A DNA stretch of 64,000 nt, from NCBI GenBank assembly GCA_050261575.1, contig JBLNDL010000067.1:1-64000 (forward strand). The letters are read 5' to 3'. Below are positions 57,001 to 64,000 of this stretch, piece after piece (the stretch's first letter is position 1; every line of letters begins with the position of its first letter). Made by a program: the position numbers. This DNA is from Sphingomonadaceae bacterium (lineage in GTDB: Bacteria; Chloroflexota; UBA6077).

Positions 57001-60000
57001 TCGATCAGCAGCACCCCCTCCGCATCCACCGGATACCCGGCGCTGGCGCCGCTGGCCTCTATCGCCTCCACGATGGTCCGATCCATGATCTCCAGCGTCG
57101 CCGGAACGATCCCCTCGGCTATCATCTCCGACACGGCGTCCCCAGCATCCTCCAGCCGGCCGAAGATCGCTAGCATCGTCTTGATCGCCTCGGGAGCCCG
57201 CATCAACCTCAGCGCCATGGAGGTCACGACGCCCAGCGTTCCCTCGGAGCCCACCAGCAGTCCGGTCAGGTCGTATCCGGGGGTATCCTCCACCAGACCG
57301 CCGGTGTGCACCACCCGCCCATCGGCCAGCACCACCTCCAGGCCGATCACGTGGTCGGAGGTGATCCCGTACTTCAAGCAGTGGGGTCCGCCTGCGTTCT
57401 CCCCGACGTTGCCGCCGAGCGTCGAGACCTTCTGGCTGGAGGGGTCCGGAGCGAACAGGTAGCCGACGGGGGCCAGGGCGTTCTGGAGGTCCAGGTTCAC
57501 GACGCCCGCCTCCACCACGGCCCGCTCGCTGGCCACGTCGATCTCCAGGATCCGGCTCATGCGTGTGCACACCAGCACCACGCCGCCCGCTTGCGGCACG
57601 GTGCCACCCGACAGGTTGGTGCCGGCCCCCCGCACCACCACTGGAATCCCCTTCCGATGGGCGATCCGCACTACCGCAGCCGCCTCGGCGGCATCCGCTG
57701 GGAAGACCACAGCCAAAGGCTCGGTCTCCCCTCCAGTGGCGTCGTACCGGTAGACCAGCCGGTCCCGCAGGCCGGCGAATAGCCCCTCCCGCCCGACTAC
57801 TCGGGTCAACTCCTCCAAGAGGTCGCTTCTATCCATTGGCCTCCCCAGAACATCATCGGTCACCCCGGCTGCAGACTGCCACGGTCTGGGACGAGAGCGT
57901 CCCCTCTTCCGAGGGGACGGCCAACCGCGAAGGCACCGAGGCACGAAGAAGCGCGAAGACCACTCGGGCCACCTCAGTGTCATTGTGTCTTCGTGGTTCG
58001 GCGCCTCGGCGCACGCGAAAGGGTTCAGCCGTGGCGCTCTCGGGGCAACGAGATTGTACAACGATTCGCCCCCCAGGGCACCGAACGCGTGATGCACGAT
58101 GCCACGCGATGCCTTCAGAGCCCGCGGGCGGCTGTAGGGCGGACCTGCACGCCCGCCCAACCCGGGTGCGGGTAGCGAGGGCGCACACCCAGCGTGACGC
58201 TAGCGGGCACGTGAGGCGAGCGAGCGCGGCCTCACGTGCCCGCCCCCTACGAAAGAGCCGGTGATGCCGATGTGCACCGCGGGCACTGAGGCTATGGCCG
58301 GCACTGGGAGAACTGGCGCATTTCTTGCTGTAGGCACTACTACTAGGAAGCCCCATCATCACCACCCCTAGTCCGTGAGGAGAAGAGACTTGCCCAGAGT
58401 CGAGCCGAGCGCCGCCACCATCTCGCTGGCGATCACCGTCGCCCTGGCGATCCTGATCTACCTCGGTTCGCGCGGCCTGCGCTACTTTGACTCCGCCCTG
58501 ATCGGCTACGCCGTCGCCTCAGTCTTCGCGCTGCTCGGCATCAGCTATCGCTTCCTGCAGTGGCTCTCACGCCCCCCAACCCGTCTGTACTGGTTGCGAG
58601 GCTGGCAGCTATTCCTCTCGTGGGAGAACTTCCGGCGCTTCGGGGGGCTGATCCCACGCGTGCTGTGGCAGAACCAAGCCACCCAGAGCTTCATCCGCCC
58701 CCGCCCCGGTGGCATCTCCCGATGGATCGGTCACCTGAGCCTCTTCTGGGGGGTGGTCCTCTCCGGTCTAATCACCTTCCCCCTGGTTTTCGGGTGGCTG
58801 GTGCTCCGCTCCCCCGGCGGCAGCCTGTACCAGTTGTACTTCTTCGGCTTCCCCACCTTCGTCTTCGAGCCGCGCTCCCTCTTCGGCTGGGTCTTCATCC
58901 ATGCACTGGACTTCACGGCTCTGATGGTCCTGCTGGGGGTTGGCCTGGCGCTACGGCGCCGCTGGCGCGACCGAGAGGTGATAGCCGAGCAGAGCTTCGG
59001 CTTCGACTTCGTGCCGCTGCTGCTGCTGGCTGCCATCTCCATCAGCGGCCTTCTGCTCACCGCCAACAGCCTCTTCTGGGAGGGGCGGTTCTACTGGTTC
59101 GTGTCCCTGGCCCATCAAGCTGTGGTCGTCCTCGGCATCCTGTACATACCGTTCGGCAAGTTCTTCCACATCCTGGAGCGGCCCGCCAGCATCGGCATCG
59201 AGCTGTACCGGGCCGTGGCCGGGCGCGTCGGCGGCGCCCGTTGCGCTCGCTGTGGCCGGGAGTTCGCCTCCAGGCTCTTCGTCGGCGACCTGATACAGAC
59301 CCTGCGCGATCTGAACCAGGACTACGCCATGGAGCCAGACGGACGGCACCTCCAGGAGTACTGCCCGGAATGCAAACGAATCCTCCGCGCCAACAGCTAC
59401 TTCTCCCGAGTCCACAGGGGATTCCTGTAGAGGTCGCAATCGATGTCGGTGGACAAGTTCCTGTATCGGCCAGGGCCGAAGGAATACGACTTCCTCAACC
59501 GGGGGTTCGCGCCGGAGGATTGGACCACCGACGCGCCCATCGACAGGCTGGTGCCCACCCACTGCTGTTTCTGCGGGGTCCAGTGCGCCATGTACCTGAA
59601 GGTCTCGCGCGGGAAGGTGGTGGGGGTCGAGCCTCGGGAGGACTTCCCCGTCAACCAGGGCCGTCTCTGCCCCAAGGGGGTGGTGGCCTACCAGCAGGTC
59701 AATCACCCCGACCGGCTCCTCTACCCCCTTGTCCGTCGCAACGGCCGACTGGAGCGGACCACCTGGGACGAGGCGATGTCGCTGATCGCGGAGCGGATCG
59801 AGACGATCCAGGCCGCCCATGGCAAGGACGCCGTCGCGATGTATGGCGGCTCCTCCCTGACGACGGAGAAGACCTACCTGATCGGCAAGTTCGCCAGGGT
59901 CGCCCTGGGCACCCGCCACTGCGACTACAACGGGCGGCTGTGCATGACCTCGGCTGCCGGCGCCAACCTGCTGGCGTTCAACGTCGACCGGCCGGCCAAT

Positions 60001-63000: not shown

Positions 63001-64000
63001 GCAGCTCTGGCTGCTGACGGTGGCGCTGGATGCTCTGCTGGCCGGCAACCTCGCCGAGACGGCGGGCCTGGCTGTGGCCTCGGGCCTCGCCTTCCTGGGT
63101 TGCCTGGGAGCGCTGTCAGTGGCGCGCCGATGACGCGCGAAAGGGCCCGGACGGAGGCCGATCTCCCCTCCTGGGGGGCGCTGGCGCTGGCCACCGCCGC
63201 CTTCGCCCTCTGCTTCGCCGTGTGGGGCTCGATCGCGCCCCTGGCCCCCAAGTTCGCCCACGTCCTCTCCCTCTCCGCCACCGAGACTGGAGTACTGATC
63301 GCGGTGCCGGTGCTACTGGGCTCCGTCGCCCGCATCCCCACCGGGCTGCTCGCCGACCGCTACGGCGGCAGGCGCGTCTTCACCGGCCTCCTGCTCTTCC
63401 TTCTCCTCCCAGTGGCGCTCATCGGCACCGCCACATCCTACGTTGCGCTCCTCTTCTGGGGCTTCTGGCTGGGAGTGGCCGGAGCATCCTTCTCCGTGGG
63501 CATACCTTACGTGGCCCGCTGGTTCCCGCCGGAGCGGCAGGGCACAGCCCTCGGCATCTACGGTATGGGGAACATAGGCACCGCCCTGGCGGCCTTTCTC
63601 TTCCCATGGATCGCCGCCCGCTTCGGCTGGCCCGCCGCATTCTGGGTCTTCCTTCCGCCCCTCGCCCTCATGGCGGCACTGTTCTGGTTCCTGGGCCGCG
63701 AAGCCCCATGGCCAGCCGGGCCACCTGCCTCCTTCTCCGCCCAGTTCGATCTGATGCGCACCCAACCCCTCACGTGGGCACTCAGCCTCTTCTACTTCGG
63801 CACCTTCGGGGGCTTCGTCGCCCTCTCCATCTACCTCCCCACCTTCCTCGTCCAGGCATACGGACTCGACCTACCGGACGCCGCCGCTCGTGCAGCGGGG
63901 TTCGTGGTGCTGGCCACTCTGGCACGGCCCCTGGGCGGGCTTCTGTCCGACCGAATCGGCGGGGCACGTGTGCTGGATGTGGTGTTCCCCGTAGTCGCAC

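What a model noticed while it worked through the whole genome (the two positions that open the first line are those of the whole stretch)
58390..64000. Five-subunit membrane-bound NasC-type molybdoenzyme (b-type membrane subunit, 4-cluster ferredoxin, Tat-anchored Rieske, [...]
C67:58390-63133 encodes, in one direction and nearly without gaps, a 6-TM protein of no family with four invariant membrane histidines and a C-terminal Cys4 ribbon (g02303), a signal-less molybdopterin subunit 45% identical to assimilatory nitrate reductase NasC (g02304), a four-cluster ferredoxin (g02305), a Rieske protein with a twin-arginine membrane anchor (g02306) and the 3-TM DUF6755 (g02307), followed by a NarK-type nitrate/nitrite transporter (g02308). 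The same five genes in the same order recur in other UBA6077-class genomes. This is not the make-up of any described nitrate reductase (Nas, Nap, Nar): I read it as a membrane-bound, quinol-linked nitrate reductase built on a Nas-type [...]
Evidence so far: Swiss-Prot: g02304 44.8% to B. subtilis NasC over 26-721, g02308 41.9% to NarK. neighbours.tsv: DUF6755 lies within 2 genes of a Rieske gene in 1950 of 2086 genomes and of Fer4_11 in 1811 of 2030. PF20540 found in 13 of 66 genomes of the class, 0 of 14 control genomes; FeS and/or Rieske genes kept beside DUF6755 in 9 of 9 relatives' loci, NarK-like MFS next to it in 2 of 9; g02303 homologue directly before the Mo subunit in 5 of 5 extended loci; H115, H171, H242, H260 and CxxC..CPxC invariant in 5 sequences; TRRDYLRLL + one TM in g02306, no TM or signal in g02304/5; hhalign puts the PFGKFFH..ERP motif on NarI's PFSRLIH motif, but at probability 1-4% only. 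The genome also has a canonical narG The finding spans contig positions 58390 to 64320; this window holds only 58390 to 64000 of it. [...]
(Added by a program. Inside this text positions count along the whole contig: contig position 1 is position 1 of the stretch shown here. "Call 12" and the like, gene names such as g00115 and contig names such as C1 are that model's own, and its searches are not shown. The text may have been shortened before it was handed on; [...] marks where a part breaks off. The agent that wrote the report below was given it as the finding of a first reader that could run no searches.)

Follow-up and report, generated by a model that had tools for sequence, protein, structure and literature searches.

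The report
Membrane-bound Nas-type nitrate reductase complex
This operon encodes a widespread but unstudied five-protein enzyme that appears to join an "assimilatory-type" nitrate reductase to a membrane cytochrome b and a Rieske protein, which would be a fourth way for bacteria to build a nitrate reductase.

Summary
The six genes are present as described, at 58390-64317 on the + strand. They form one of the most conserved gene clusters I examined. In 215 unique loci from at least ten phyla, the membrane gene is followed by the Mo gene in 158 of 163 testable loci, and by the FeS and Rieske genes in 152 of 163.

- The "no-family" membrane protein is a remote NarI/DsrM-type di-heme cytochrome b. 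hhalign gives 97.8% probability, and the AF2 model (pLDDT 91) matches NarI at Z 9.9 and EtfD at Z 10.9.
- The FeS subunit, and therefore the Mo subunit, most likely sits on the cytoplasmic face. The evidence is a complex model (0.82, best control 0.00), NarK–membrane-subunit fusions, charge bias, and an anion transporter gene (NarK, HPP or TDT) beside 88 of 98 loci.
- The cluster is separate from canonical assimilation genes. Pyrinomonas K22 has a complete nasBCDE-type cluster elsewhere, and no nirA/nirB lies in 239 loci.

Best reading: a cytoplasm-facing quinol:nitrate oxidoreductase with Nar logic, a Nas catalytic subunit and an extra outward-facing Rieske protein whose role is unknown. Activity, hemes and physiology are all inferred. 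One 2012 paper noted a nasC–FeS–Rieske linkage in Bacillus.

The parts
58390..59430 (+). Membrane subunit ('memB'). It has 6 TM helices and is a remote NarI/DsrM-family di-heme cytochrome b with a C-terminal Cys4 zinc-ribbon domain. The likely start is TTG at 58390, with AGGAG 8 nt upstream. An alternative GTG lies at 58375, and residue numbers in this report count from it.
   Evidence: ORF; start region; six hydrophobic segments. Conserved H120, H176, H247, H265 and C290, C293, C330, C333 across 121 sequences. NCBIfam qmoC membrane part, E 7.3e-6. hhalign against a NarI/DsrM alignment gives 97.8%. AF2 pLDDT 91.2. VIA Z 10.9 to EtfD and 9.9 to NarI.
59443..61611 (+). Catalytic Mo-bisPGD subunit of Nas/NarB type with an N-terminal [4Fe-4S] motif. 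It has no signal peptide.
   Evidence: Pfam and NCBIfam matches (NasC 826.5 bits, Fdh-alpha 617.6, NapA 301, narG 65). In the alignment to formate dehydrogenases, Cys-Met replaces Sec-His and Thr replaces the FDH Arg. C41, C44, C48, C76, R165, C167, M168 and T360-E370 are invariant in 59 orthologues and the same in K22's canonical NasC. No hydrophobic segment.
61613..62242 (+). Four-cluster [4Fe-4S] electron-transfer subunit of the FdnH/DmsB/NarH class. It has no signal peptide and no TM helix.
   Evidence: Fer4_11 match. Sixteen conserved Cys in four CxxCxxCxxxC-type groups across 56 sequences. The nearest solved protein is FdnH at 108 bits, with NarH at 57. Predicted to bind the cytoplasmic face of memB.
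62382..62897 (+). Rieske [2Fe-2S] protein. From the N-terminus it has a conserved cytoplasmic peptide, a twin-arginine motif (R35-R36), one TM anchor and a bc/Aio-type Rieske domain with the disulfide cysteines.
   Evidence: Pfam Rieske match. An RR motif in 54 of 55 orthologues. C112, H114, C117, C130, C132 and H133 are invariant in 55 sequences. The nearest solved proteins are the Thermus bc Rieske at 77.8 bits and AioB at 71.8. Tail residues 23-30 touch the FeS subunit in the co-fold.
62900..63133 (+). DUF6755 small membrane protein. It is a two-helix hairpin with a QLWLLTxAL motif.
   Evidence: PF20540, 33.4 bits against a cut-off of 27. AF2 helices 15-48 and 51-76. A homologous ORF lies directly after the Rieske gene in 49 of 53 loci.
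63130..64000 (+). NarK-like nitrate/nitrite MFS transporter. It runs on to contig position 64317, and its start overlaps the DUF6755 stop by 4 nt.
   Evidence: The full-length protein scores 244.4 bits on TIGR00886, below the cut-off of 311.7; the next-best family scores 79.5.

Best explanation
The five genes encode one membrane complex that reduces nitrate to nitrite in the cytoplasm, using electrons from the membrane quinol pool. It follows the working logic of NarGHI but is built from different parts.

Proposed path of electrons and ions:
1. Quinol is oxidised at the outer (P) side of a NarI-like di-heme cytochrome b (memB).
2. Electrons cross the membrane over two b hemes. The outer heme is ligated by H176 and H247, the inner one by H120 and H265.
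3. They enter a four-cluster FeS subunit docked on memB's cytoplasmic loops and zinc-ribbon domain.
4. They reach the [4Fe-4S] cluster and the Mo-bisPGD site of a NasC-type subunit.
5. Protons released outside and consumed inside would conserve energy.
6. A co-encoded anion transporter (NarK here; HPP or a TDT/SLAC1-type protein in other loci) brings nitrate in and/or takes nitrite out.

A Tat-inserted, disulfide-bearing Rieske protein is a fixed part of the complex. Its domain lies on the P side and its N-terminal tail holds the FeS subunit. A two-helix DUF6755 protein is also a fixed part. I place the Rieske cluster at or near the quinol site. Its exact role is not known.

What is shown: gene content, conservation, homologies, motifs and neighbourhoods.

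What is inferred: complex formation, topology, cofactors, substrate, electron donor, energy conservation and a dissimilatory or dual role.
For: 1. A single conserved unit.
- Of 215 unique loci, 163 have at least 4.6 kb after memB. Of these, 158 have the Mo gene directly after it and 152 also have the FeS and Rieske genes. A looser count on the first 154 loci gave 112/112 and 109/112.
- A DUF6755-like ORF follows the Rieske gene in 49 of 53 loci.

2. memB is NarI-like.
- hhalign probability 97.8%, E 7.6e-13, over 214 columns. PFGKFFH aligns on PFSKLxH.
- Only two of 48,161 chains reach Z of 8 or more: EtfD (Z 10.9, rmsd 4.2, 227 aligned) and NarI (Z 9.9, rmsd 5.1, 184 aligned).
- The qmoC membrane part matches at E 7.3e-6.

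3. Nitrate chemistry.
- The NasC model is the best match.
- Two FDH residues are replaced: the His after Sec by Met, and an Arg by Thr. That these are FDH's catalytic His and Arg is recalled.
- The active-site motifs are invariant in 59 orthologues and identical to the NasC of K22's nasBCDE-like cluster.
- In this class, the 12 NasC-model hits of 672-840 bits all lie in DUF6755-positive genomes. The next best scores 599 (this count includes the unpublished G009).

4. Cytoplasmic orientation.
- Co-fold of memB, Rieske, DUF6755 and FeS: score 0.82, best of 3 controls 0.00. That mark was reached by 116 of 157 solved complexes and 2 of 215 mismatched pairs. The runs share at least 76% of contacts and the partner's pLDDT is at least 75. 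My own alignments and four chains were used, so the calibration holds only roughly.
- FeS touches memB residues 66-72, 106-111, 200-205, 262-275 and 292-346, and Rieske residues 23-30.
- Those loops carry 33 K+R against 5 in the opposite loops.
- NarK–memB fusion proteins exist as three 50%-identity clusters.
- The Mo and FeS subunits have no signal or TM segment.
- Of 98 loci, 79 have a NarK (35), TDT/SLAC1 (23) or HPP (21) gene within 3.5 kb downstream, and 9 more have one upstream. An HPP protein was shown to transport nitrite (cited in PMC7438415, passage read).

5. Not the assimilation operon.
- K22 has a separate sigma54-activator–NarK–NasC–NasB–NirB–NirD–CobA cluster.
- NirA/Sir, NirB, NirD and NasB queries found no NIR_SIR gene in 239 module loci covering 2.9 Mb.
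- G069 and G070 have the module but no narG and no NIR_SIR gene.
- In G068 the module is followed by a TDT gene and a bona fide NirK at 355 bits.
- Crp/Fnr-type regulators lie in 26 of 154 loci, NnrS in 6 and DUF2249 in 7.
Against: - No activity, cofactor or expression data exist for any member.
- The Mo subunit scores below the NasC cut-off (826.5 against 1100), and the transporter scores below the NarK cut-off (244.4 against 311.7).
- memB gets no Pfam hit and no sequence hit in the PDB. Foldseek gave nothing at E of 0.001 or better.
- The co-fold may partly echo the solved NarH–NarI and FdnH–FdnI complexes. Only the FeS interface was scored.
- A quinol-to-heme-b path needs no Rieske protein, so the model does not explain an invariant subunit.
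- Carriers include obligate aerobes. P. methylaliphatogenes K22 is described as obligately aerobic (PMC4644332, passages read).
- This genome and G068 already have NarGHI, so a respiratory role would be redundant there.
- The completeness of G069 and G070 is not given.
- Denitrification-type neighbours are a minority.
- No FNR box was found in the window.
Confidence: 0.6

Rival explanations
1. An alternative assimilatory nitrate reductase. The complex makes cytoplasmic nitrite for NirBD or NirA, and the FeS, Rieske and membrane subunits merely replace NasB or ferredoxin as the electron supply. This could also be a dual role, as is known for NarGHI in mycobacteria (recalled).
For: - The catalytic subunit is Nas-type with the same active-site motifs as a canonical NasC.
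- Carriers include obligate aerobes that use nitrate as N source (K22; PMC4644332, passages read).
- Acidobacterial genome surveys list these genes as assimilatory (PMC5900883, passages read).
- Heylen & Keltjens proposed exactly this for a nasC–FeS–Rieske cluster in B. bataviensis (PMC3475470, passages read).
- K22, T. hazakensis and G068 do have NirB- or NirA-type genes elsewhere.
Against: - K22 carries a complete canonical nas cluster in addition.
- No siroheme nitrite reductase gene lies in any of 239 module loci, unlike typical nas operons.
- Two of the five carrier genomes examined have no NIR_SIR gene at all (their completeness is unknown).
- NirK, NnrS, DUF2249 and Crp/Fnr neighbours occur.
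- An energy-conserving membrane anchor is typical of respiratory enzymes (general knowledge).
Confidence: 0.2
2. An outward-facing enzyme. The FeS and Mo subunits are carried across the membrane with the Rieske protein's Tat signal, as AioA is carried with AioB. Nitrate is then reduced on the P side, as in Nap or archaeal pNar.
For: - The Rieske protein has a well-conserved twin-arginine motif (54 of 55) and disulfide cysteines.
- Its second-best solved relatives are AioB proteins, whose signal-less Mo partner is co-exported (recalled).
- The Mo and FeS subunits have no signal of their own.
Against: - The co-fold puts FeS on memB's loops and zinc ribbon and on the Rieske tail upstream of the RR motif.
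- Those memB parts are on the positive-inside face.
- In NarK–memB fusions they continue from a cytoplasmic MFS end.
- NarI homology places the PFxKxxH end in the cytoplasm (plus recalled NarGHI structure).
- A nitrate or nitrite transporter gene lies beside 88 of 98 loci, and an outward-facing site would not need one.
Confidence: 0.07
3. The Mo subunit acts on another substrate (formate, chlorate, selenate, iodate or similar). The nitrate-related neighbours would then be incidental.
For: - The Mo subunit is below the NasC equivalog cut-off.
- Its nearest solved structures are cytoplasmic formate dehydrogenases at 526 bits.
- The FeS subunit is nearest to FdnH.
- TDT/SLAC1 and MFS transporters are not specific for nitrate.
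Against: - The Sec/Cys-His pair and an Arg of formate dehydrogenases are replaced.
- The motifs equal those of a NasC that sits in a nasBCDE-type operon.
- The NasC model outscores Fdh-alpha by 209 bits.
- NarK-family and HPP genes and NarK fusions point to nitrate and nitrite.
- No assimilatory nitrate reductase appeared among the solved-structure hits, so the FDH ranking there does not count against a Nas assignment.
Confidence: 0.06

Closest known systems
Respiratory nitrate reductase NarGHI with NarK
   Same: - Same three-tier layout: a di-heme cytochrome b of the NarI superfamily, a four-cluster FeS subunit and a cytoplasmic Mo-bisPGD subunit.
- A NarK-type transporter gene lies next to it.
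- Predicted FeS docking on the cytoplasmic end of the cytochrome b at the PFxKxxH motif.
   Different: - The catalytic subunit is not NarG-type (narG model 65 bits against a cut-off of 1084). It has a Cys-Met Mo ligand region like Nas and Nap.
- The FeS subunit is nearer to FdnH than to NarH.
- The cytochrome b has an extra N-terminal helix, one heme ligand moved to another helix, and a C-terminal Cys4 zinc-ribbon domain.
- A Rieske protein and DUF6755 are added.
- No NarJ-like gene was seen in the operon.
Assimilatory nitrate reductases NasC/NasA/NarB (for example the B. subtilis-type nasBCDE cluster, found here in P. methylaliphatogenes K22, L219)
   Same: - The catalytic subunit is of this type, at 51% identity to K22's NasC.
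- Active-site and cluster motifs are identical.
- It is cytoplasmic, with no Tat signal.
   Different: - Partners are an FeS subunit, a membrane cytochrome b, a Tat-Rieske protein and DUF6755, in place of NasB, NADH or ferredoxin.
- It is never next to nirBD or nirA (0 of 239 loci).
- It scores below the NasC equivalog cut-off.
nasC–FeS protein–Rieske cluster of Bacillus bataviensis (BABA_16882, 16877, 16872), Heylen & Keltjens 2012, PMC3475470
   Same: A 729-aa NasC is linked to an iron-sulfur protein and a Rieske-type protein, and the arrangement is said to be shared with other Bacillus species (passages read). This is probably the same module.
   Different: - The paper mentions no membrane subunits.
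- It reads the cluster as an alternative assimilatory system.
- I could not reach that genome to test for memB or DUF6755.
Archaeal pNarGH with NarB (Rieske) and NarC (cytochrome b), and Thermus NarCGHI (both recalled from the literature, not read here)
   Same: These are nitrate reductases that carry an extra P-side redox subunit (a Rieske protein or a cytochrome c) beside a membrane cytochrome b.
   Different: - Both use NarG-type catalytic subunits.
- pNar faces outward and its cytochrome b is of the bc type.
- In the present complex the active site is predicted inside and the cytochrome b is NarI-type.
Arsenite oxidase AioAB and Rieske/cytochrome b (bc1, b6f) complexes
   Same: The Rieske protein is of their kind. 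It has a Tat motif plus anchor and the CTHLxC...CPCH motifs with the disulfide cysteines. The nearest solved proteins are the Thermus bc Rieske and AioB.
   Different: - The Mo subunit is not AioA-like (164 bits against a cut-off of 359).
- There is no bc-type cytochrome b and no cytochrome c1 or f.
- In the model the Rieske tail, not its domain, touches the FeS subunit.
Mycobacterium smegmatis EtfD (PDB 9ojn)
   Same: It is the best structural match of memB (Z 10.9, rmsd 4.2, 227 aligned). It is a NarI-like membrane domain that feeds or drains a cytoplasmic FeS domain.
   Different: EtfD is fused to its own FeS domains and serves electron-transfer flavoprotein rather than a molybdoenzyme (function recalled).

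Membership tests
NarI / Nitrate_red_gam superfamily (memB) | Significant sequence-profile similarity to family members | tested here: met
   hhalign of 121 memB sequences against 15 NarI/DsrM-type proteins gives probability 97.8%, E 7.6e-13, over 214 columns. The NCBIfam qmoC membrane part matches at E 7.3e-6.
NarI / Nitrate_red_gam superfamily (memB) | Pfam PF02665 hit above the gathering score | tested here: not met
   The window protein has no Pfam family. PF02665 did not hit it in the genome search at E of 1e-5 or better. One relative reached 17.2 bits and one fragment reached 22.9 bits, the cut-off.
NarI / Nitrate_red_gam superfamily (memB) | NarI-like helical-bundle fold | tested here: met
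   AF2 pLDDT 91.2. VIA-align gives EtfD Z 10.9 (rmsd 4.2, 227 aligned) and NarI 1q16_C Z 9.9 (rmsd 5.1, 184 of 224 aligned). These are the only two chains at Z of 8 or more. Foldseek alone was not significant.
NarI / Nitrate_red_gam superfamily (memB) | Four histidines that ligate two b hemes | tested here: inconclusive
   H120, H247 and H265 are invariant and H176 is at least 90% conserved in 121 sequences. H247 and H265 lie 18 residues apart and align with the NarI helix-V pair. One ligand sits on a different helix than in NarI. Heme binding cannot be tested with these tools.
Assimilatory nitrate reductase NasC (NF047855) | Score above the curated equivalog cut-off | tested here: not met
   826.5 bits against a cut-off of 1100. 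It is still the best model.
Assimilatory nitrate reductase NasC/NarB | Cys Mo ligand followed by Met, the TGQxNxxGGRE loop and the N-terminal 4-Cys cluster | tested here: met
   Invariant in 59 module orthologues and identical in K22's canonical NasC. The labelling of these residues as ligand and active site is recalled from Nap and Nas literature.
Assimilatory nitrate reductase system (Nas) | NADH- or ferredoxin-linked partner, and a genomic link to nirBD or nirA | tested here: not met
   No NIR_SIR, NirD or NasB homologue lies in 239 module loci; there were 4 weak flavoprotein hits. K22's real nas cluster is elsewhere.
Respiratory nitrate reductase NarGHI | NarG-type catalytic subunit and NarH-type FeS subunit | tested here: not met
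   The narG model scores 65.4 bits against a cut-off of 1084, and the narH model 34.2 against 524.
Periplasmic nitrate reductase Nap | Tat signal on the catalytic subunit, and a NapA model score above cut-off | tested here: not met
   The Mo N-terminus has no RR motif and no hydrophobic segment. NapA models score 301 and 286 bits against cut-offs of 904 and 930.
bc-type / Aio-type high-potential Rieske proteins | CxH...CxxH ligands plus the two disulfide cysteines, and a twin-arginine signal anchor | tested here: met
   C112, H114, C117, C130, C132 and H133 are invariant in 55 sequences. An RR motif precedes the single TM in 54 of 55. The nearest solved proteins are the Thermus bc Rieske and AioB. 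The NCBIfam equivalog cut-offs are not reached.
Cytochrome bc1/b6f complex | bc-type cytochrome b and a c1/f cytochrome | tested here: not met
   None of the six proteins has a cytochrome b (bc-type) or cytochrome c family hit.
DUF6755 (PF20540) | Pfam gathering score | tested here: met
   33.4 bits against a cut-off of 27; 33.7 bits in the genome search.
NarK nitrate/nitrite MFS transporters (TIGR00886) | Score above the curated cut-off | tested here: not met
   244.4 bits against a cut-off of 311.7 for the full-length protein. It is the best family by 165 bits.
Four-cluster ferredoxin subunits of Mo/W enzymes (FdnH/DmsB/NarH class) | Four Cys groups for four clusters | tested here: met
   Sixteen Cys are invariant or at least 90% conserved in 56 sequences. 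Fer4_11 scores 69.4 bits. FdnH is the nearest solved protein.

The most novel reading that the evidence does not exclude
memB and the Rieske protein together form a minimal Qo-type, bifurcating quinol-oxidation site. One electron of each quinol goes outward through the high-potential Rieske cluster to periplasmic acceptors, such as NirK, cupredoxins or cytochrome c and on to nitrite or O2. The other electron crosses the membrane over the two b hemes and ends on nitrate in the cytoplasm instead of at a Qi site. The complex would then be a 'bc complex without a Q cycle', whose low-potential chain is a nitrate reductase. It would tie nitrate reduction to the next denitrification step or to aerobic respiration. 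That would also explain why it occurs in aerobes and beside NarGHI.
Probability: 0.15. Interest if true: 0.95.

Novelty: new variant of a known kind. Interest (0 to 1): 0.8.

Why it matters
Textbooks list three prokaryotic nitrate reductase systems: Nar, Nap and Nas. This module would be a fourth architecture, a Nas-type catalytic subunit wired to the membrane.

It is not rare:
- The membrane subunit has 1308 clusters at 50% identity, 238 of them at E of 1e-30 or better.
- By record titles these include Chloroflexota, Acidobacteriota, Actinomycetota, Gemmatimonadota, Planctomycetota, Myxococcota, Armatimonadota and others. Many come from soil.

Genome surveys currently count these genes as 'assimilatory nasA', and NCBI names the membrane subunit 'MFS transporter'. 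Soil nitrate-to-nitrite potential and energy budgets may therefore be misassigned.

One survey (PMC5900883, passages read) reports acidobacteria that reduce nitrate to nitrite without Nar or Nap. Whether they carry this module is untested, but the question is now directly testable.

Cultured carriers exist for experiments: Pyrinomonas methylaliphatogenes K22, Thermosporothrix hazakensis, Lacipirellula limnantheis I41 and Singulisphaera sp. Ch08.

The unexplained P-side Rieske protein on a NarI-type cytochrome b is a new combination in bioenergetics.

Tried and rejected
Tools that gave nothing:
- A profile of memB against PDB sequences returned nothing meaningful.
- Foldseek against the PDB gave no match at E of 0.001 or better, although EtfD and NarI appeared with probabilities 0.99 and 0.82. 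The VIA-align wide search resolved it.
- An FNR-box pattern had 0 matches in the window.
- Sequencing runs: no RNA holder was listed. There were only soil and sludge DNA metagenomes, and I did not lay reads.

Analyses I redid:
- The iterated HMM for DUF6755 absorbed out-of-frame translation of the Rieske 3' end. I replaced it with a single-sequence phmmer. The 4 Acidimicrobiia loci found only by the iterated HMM are left uncounted.
- The first NIR_SIR adjacency test used Dsr-like queries and was insensitive. I redid it with NirA/Sir, NirB, NirD and NasB queries.

Genomes I could not reach:
- Granulicella mallensis and strain KBS 96, which are nitrate reducers without Nar or Nap, were not among the 80 loci kept.
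- Bacillus bataviensis was not among the 80 kept either.

Items set aside:
- The memB–Mo 'fusions' P0247 and P0248 look like read-through or frameshifted calls, and I did not use them as evidence.
- I did not inspect 11 of the 163 loci that failed the strict positional test. L023, L055 and L194 lacked FeS and Rieske hits altogether.

Literature. Eight full-text searches found no description of the five-gene module:
- 'DUF6755': 0 papers.
- Nitrate reductase + Rieske + NasC + membrane-bound.
- Nitrate reductase + Rieske + HPP + nitrite transporter.
- 'Novel nitrate reductase' + Chloroflexi + Rieske.
- Pyrinomonas + nitrate.
- Thermosporothrix + nitrate.
- 'NasC-like' and its variants.
- HPP family + nitrite transport.
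Subscription journals are not covered, and I opened no supplements.

Full report
**Observation**

The + strand of the window from 58375/58390 to its end carries six tightly packed ORFs:
- A 346/351-aa membrane protein, here called memB, at 58390-59430. The TTG start at 58390 has AGGAG 8 nt upstream and matches the N-termini of homologues.
- A 722-aa molybdopterin subunit at 59443-61611.
- A 209-aa FeS protein at 61613-62242.
- A 171-aa Rieske protein at 62382-62897.
- A 77-aa DUF6755 protein at 62900-63133.
- An MFS transporter from 63130 that runs to contig position 64317 and is followed by a convergent gene.

Pfam and NCBIfam confirm the domain calls. Kyte-Doolittle scanning gives six hydrophobic segments in memB, one in the Rieske protein, none in the Mo and FeS proteins, and two regions in DUF6755. 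The class tally of 13 of 66 genomes with DUF6755 was reproduced. That tally includes two genomes the tool flags as unpublished, G009 and G046.

**Conservation**

memB is not an orphan:
- A word-indexed search scored 1742 relatives among 8000 candidates. The named ones are called 'MFS transporter' by NCBI.
- An exhaustive profile search of 1.84 billion cluster representatives found 1308 clusters at E of 0.001 or better, 838 at 1e-10 or better, and 238 at 1e-30 or better.

Record titles name the following groups:
- Chloroflexota, including Ktedonobacteria, Thermomicrobiales, Dehalococcoidia and Ardenticatenaceae.
- Acidobacteriota, including Blastocatellia/Pyrinomonadaceae, Thermoanaerobaculia, Vicinamibacteria, Holophagales and Bryobacterales.
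- Actinomycetota, Gemmatimonadota, Planctomycetota, Myxococcota and Armatimonadota.
- Ignavibacteria, Vulcanimicrobiota, Sericytochromatia and one cyanobacterium.

The cultured strains among them are Thermosporothrix hazakensis, Pyrinomonas methylaliphatogenes K22, Lacipirellula limnantheis I41 and Singulisphaera sp. Ch08.

Gene order in the loci:
- Of the 240 loci kept, 215 are unique. Of these, 163 have at least 4.6 kb after memB.
- Under strict positional windows, 158 of the 163 have the Mo gene directly downstream and 152 also have the FeS and Rieske genes. I did not inspect the 11 exceptions individually.
- A looser count on the first 154 unique loci gave 112/112 and 109/112.
- The window's DUF6755 protein alone (phmmer, E of 0.001 or better) finds an ORF directly after the Rieske gene in 49 of 53 loci.
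- Identity to the window proteins, as median and range: Mo 57% (44-66), FeS 53% (45-64), Rieske 44% (32-56), memB 46% (40-53).

**What memB is**

The window protein has no Pfam hit. NCBIfam does match the membrane part of QmoC at E 7.3e-6.

I aligned 121 family members (A2). I also aligned 15 proteins that PF02665 (Nitrate_red_gam) finds in genomes of the same class: six NarI and nine DsrM/HdrE-like (A3). Profile-profile comparison gives probability 97.8%, E 7.6e-13, over 214 columns. The family's PFGKFFH motif is laid on PFSKLxH of NarI/DsrM.

Foldseek alone found nothing at E of 0.001 or better. An exhaustive VIA-align search of 48,161 chains returns only two at Z of 8 or more:
- M. smegmatis EtfD: Z 10.9, rmsd 4.2, 227 residues aligned.
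- E. coli NarI: Z 9.9, rmsd 5.1, 184 of 224 residues aligned.

The next row is Z 7.7. For helical bundles such Z values are not decisive alone, but they agree with the profile result.

H120, H247 and H265 are invariant and H176 is at least 90% conserved. C290, C293, C330 and C333 are invariant.

From the helix order and charge bias:
- H176 and H247 would hold an outer heme, and H120 and H265 an inner heme.
- The H247/H265 pair matches NarI's helix-V pair in the alignment.
- The fourth ligand sits on a different helix than in NarI.

Heme binding itself is inferred.

**The catalytic and electron-transfer subunits**

The best NCBIfam model for the Mo subunit is NasC at 826.5 bits, below its cut-off of 1100. 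It is followed by Fdh-alpha (617.6), haloarchaeal NasA (421.9) and NapA (301), with narG at 65. The nearest solved structures are cytoplasmic formate dehydrogenases and Desulfovibrio NapA. No assimilatory nitrate reductase appeared among those hits.

The printed alignments show RLCM where the dehydrogenases have RLU/CH, and TLTGQGNGQGGRE where they have LRGQNNVQG. That these are the catalytic His and Arg of formate dehydrogenases is recalled, not tested.

In 59 module orthologues the following are invariant: the four cluster cysteines, R165, C167, M168 and T360-G-Q-G-N-G-Q-G-G-R-E370. They are identical in the NasC of a canonical assimilation cluster of strain K22.

Within the window's class, NasC-model scores are bimodal. 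Twelve hits of 672-840 bits all lie in DUF6755-positive genomes. The next best scores 599, and many of the lower ones carry an in-frame TGA typical of selenocysteine formate dehydrogenases (the count includes unpublished G009).

The FeS protein has 16 conserved cysteines in four groups. It is nearest to FdnH (108 bits), with NarH at 57.

The Rieske protein has the following features:
- Its ligands and both disulfide cysteines are invariant (C112, H114, C117, C130, C132, H133).
- A [ST]RRxxL motif lies directly before its single TM in 54 of 55 orthologues; the remaining one is frameshifted.
- It is nearest to the Thermus bc-complex Rieske protein (77.8 bits) and to AioB (71.8 bits).

**Orientation**

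Five lines of evidence agree that the FeS subunit, and with it the Mo subunit, is cytoplasmic while the Rieske domain is outside.

1. Charge bias. memB's N-terminus, TM2-3 loop, TM4-5 loop and C-terminal domain hold 33 Lys+Arg. The other three loops hold 5.

2. Homology. This places the PFxKxxH end where NarI meets NarH. That this contact is cytoplasmic is recalled from the NarGHI structure.

3. Fusion proteins. Three 50%-identity clusters (P0124, P0148, P0160) are continuous NarK-family–memB fusions (TIGR00886 scores of 234, 232 and 89 bits). MFS termini are cytoplasmic by general knowledge, so memB starts inside, and six helices later it ends inside.

4. Co-fold. A co-fold of memB, Rieske, DUF6755 and FeS, with FeS as the scored partner, gave 0.82 in all three runs, and the best of three controls gave 0.00.
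   - That mark was reached by 116 of 157 solved complexes and 2 of 215 mismatched pairs.
   - The runs share at least 76% of contacts, and the partner's pLDDT is at least 75.
   - My own alignments and four chains were used, so the calibration holds only roughly.
   - FeS touches memB residues 66-72 and 106-111 (TM2-3 loop), 200-205 (TM4-5 loop), 262-275 (including H265 and R269) and 292-346 (the zinc ribbon, with K334 and R335 against the C100-P-F-G loop of FeS).
   - FeS also touches Rieske residues 23-30. This is the conserved FPYxxDxD peptide upstream of the twin arginines.
   - NarH–NarI and FdnH–FdnI are solved, so part of this pass may be memory of a like complex. The zinc-ribbon and Rieske-tail contacts have no counterpart there.

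5. Transporters. Of 98 unique loci with at least 2 kb after the Rieske gene, 79 have a NarK-family (35), TDT/SLAC1-family (23) or HPP-family (21) gene within 3.5 kb downstream. Nine of the remaining 19 have one within 3 kb upstream of memB. HPP proteins are reported nitrite transporters (Maeda et al. 2014, as cited in PMC7438415, passage read). An outward-facing active site would not need these transporters.

**Physiological role**

The module is not part of assimilation operons.

Strain K22 (handle G066) has two NasC-type genes. One is the module, inserted with its own NarK among ribosomal-protein and replication genes. The other lies in a cluster of sigma54 activator, NarK, NasC, NasB-like flavoprotein, NirB, NirD and a uroporphyrin methylase.

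T. hazakensis has two full copies of the module.

Queries with NirA/Sir-type, NirB, NirD and NasB proteins found no siroheme nitrite reductase gene in 239 module loci covering 2.9 Mb. There were only four weak flavoprotein hits.

The five carrier genomes I searched gave the following:
- G069 and G070 have no narG and no NIR_SIR gene. Their completeness is not given.
- G068 has NarG as well, and its module is followed on the same strand by a TDT gene and a NirK that passes its cut-off (355 bits).

Across 154 loci, neighbours identified through their Pfam-annotated cluster representatives were Crp/Fnr-type regulators in 26, NnrS-like genes in 6, DUF2249 in 7 and NirK-like genes in 4.

The window's own genome looks like that of a facultative or anaerobic respirer:
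- NarGHI on contig C93.
- DsrA, DsrB and DsrM on C14.
- An anaerobic CO dehydrogenase just upstream of the module.

Against a purely respiratory role:
- K22 is described as obligately aerobic (PMC4644332, passages read).
- Surveys list these genes as assimilatory (PMC5900883, passages read).
- Heylen & Keltjens proposed an alternative assimilatory system for a nasC–FeS–Rieske cluster in Bacillus bataviensis (PMC3475470, passages read).

A dual role is possible.

**Mechanism proposed**

1. Quinol is oxidised on the P side of memB.
2. Electrons pass over two b hemes to the FeS chain and on to the Mo site.
3. Nitrate is reduced inside the cell.
4. NarK, HPP or TDT proteins exchange nitrate and nitrite.
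5. The charge separation conserves energy, as in NarGHI.

I commit to this model at about 0.6.

The invariant Rieske protein is not explained by it. It may be the primary quinol oxidant that hands electrons to the outer heme. It may be a port to or from periplasmic carriers. In the boldest reading, it is the high-potential arm of a bifurcating Qo-like site whose low-potential arm ends at nitrate. I could not score the Rieske-domain–memB contact, because the single complex job scores only one partner.

**Novelty**

Eight full-text searches found no description of the five-gene module. 'DUF6755' occurs in no paper. The nearest item in print is the 2012 Bacillus note, which lacks the membrane subunits. 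I could not reach that genome to test identity. Subscription literature and supplements were not covered.

I rate the finding as a new variant of a known kind: a fourth nitrate-reductase architecture assembled from known modules. It is widespread, and it is currently mis-annotated as 'assimilatory nasA' and 'MFS transporter'.

Noticed in passing
window 53966-56008 (-): The gene upstream of the module is an anaerobic carbon-monoxide dehydrogenase catalytic subunit (CooS). TIGR01702 scores 714.5 bits against a cut-off of 478.
   Followed up: partly
window 56457-58160 (-): A GlcD-like FAD-linked oxidase lies directly upstream and divergent from the module (TIGR00387, 501.9 bits, below the cut-off of 567.9). 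A homologous FAD oxidase recurs near the module in 4 of the first 81 loci, counting the window (cluster c15).
   Followed up: no
G000 contig C14:24487-28303 (loci L098, L099, L130): The same genome carries tandem DsrA- and DsrB-like genes and a DsrM that passes its cut-off (485.5 against 300). This is a dissimilatory sulfite reductase system in this Chloroflexota-like genome.
   Followed up: partly
G000 contig C93:59100-65849 (loci L096, L097, L103): The same genome has a canonical NarG (1525.8 bits) and NarI, so it holds two different nitrate reductase systems.
   Followed up: partly
G000 contig C18:15412-17427 (-): A formate-dehydrogenase-like Mo enzyme with one in-frame TGA, probably selenocysteine. 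Several class relatives have the same.
   Followed up: no
proteins P0124, P0148, P0160: Natural fusions of a NarK-family transporter to memB in one polypeptide. This probably explains why NCBI names stand-alone memB proteins 'MFS transporter'.
   Followed up: yes
L050 and L220 (Thermosporothrix hazakensis, handle G067): There are two complete copies of the module about 120 kb apart on one contig. The second has a divergently transcribed NarK-like gene upstream.
   Followed up: partly
L068:6258-7772 (-): An IS605 OrfB/TnpB-type gene lies about 1.2 kb upstream of the module in the Ardenticatenaceae MAG. Together with the patchy distribution (13 of 66 genomes in the class), this fits spread by horizontal transfer.
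   Followed up: no
A5, Rieske residues about 20-31 (window 62439-62474): A conserved N-terminal peptide (consensus EFPYxWDxD) precedes the twin-arginine motif, on the cytoplasmic side. It is unusual for a Tat signal n-region to be this conserved. In the co-fold it contacts the FeS subunit.
   Followed up: partly
memB residues 142-164 (window about 58798-58866): The AF2 model shows a three-stranded beta-sheet in the P-side loop between TM3 and TM4, with conserved Y152. It may be a docking site for the Rieske domain or part of a quinol site. This was not tested.
   Followed up: no
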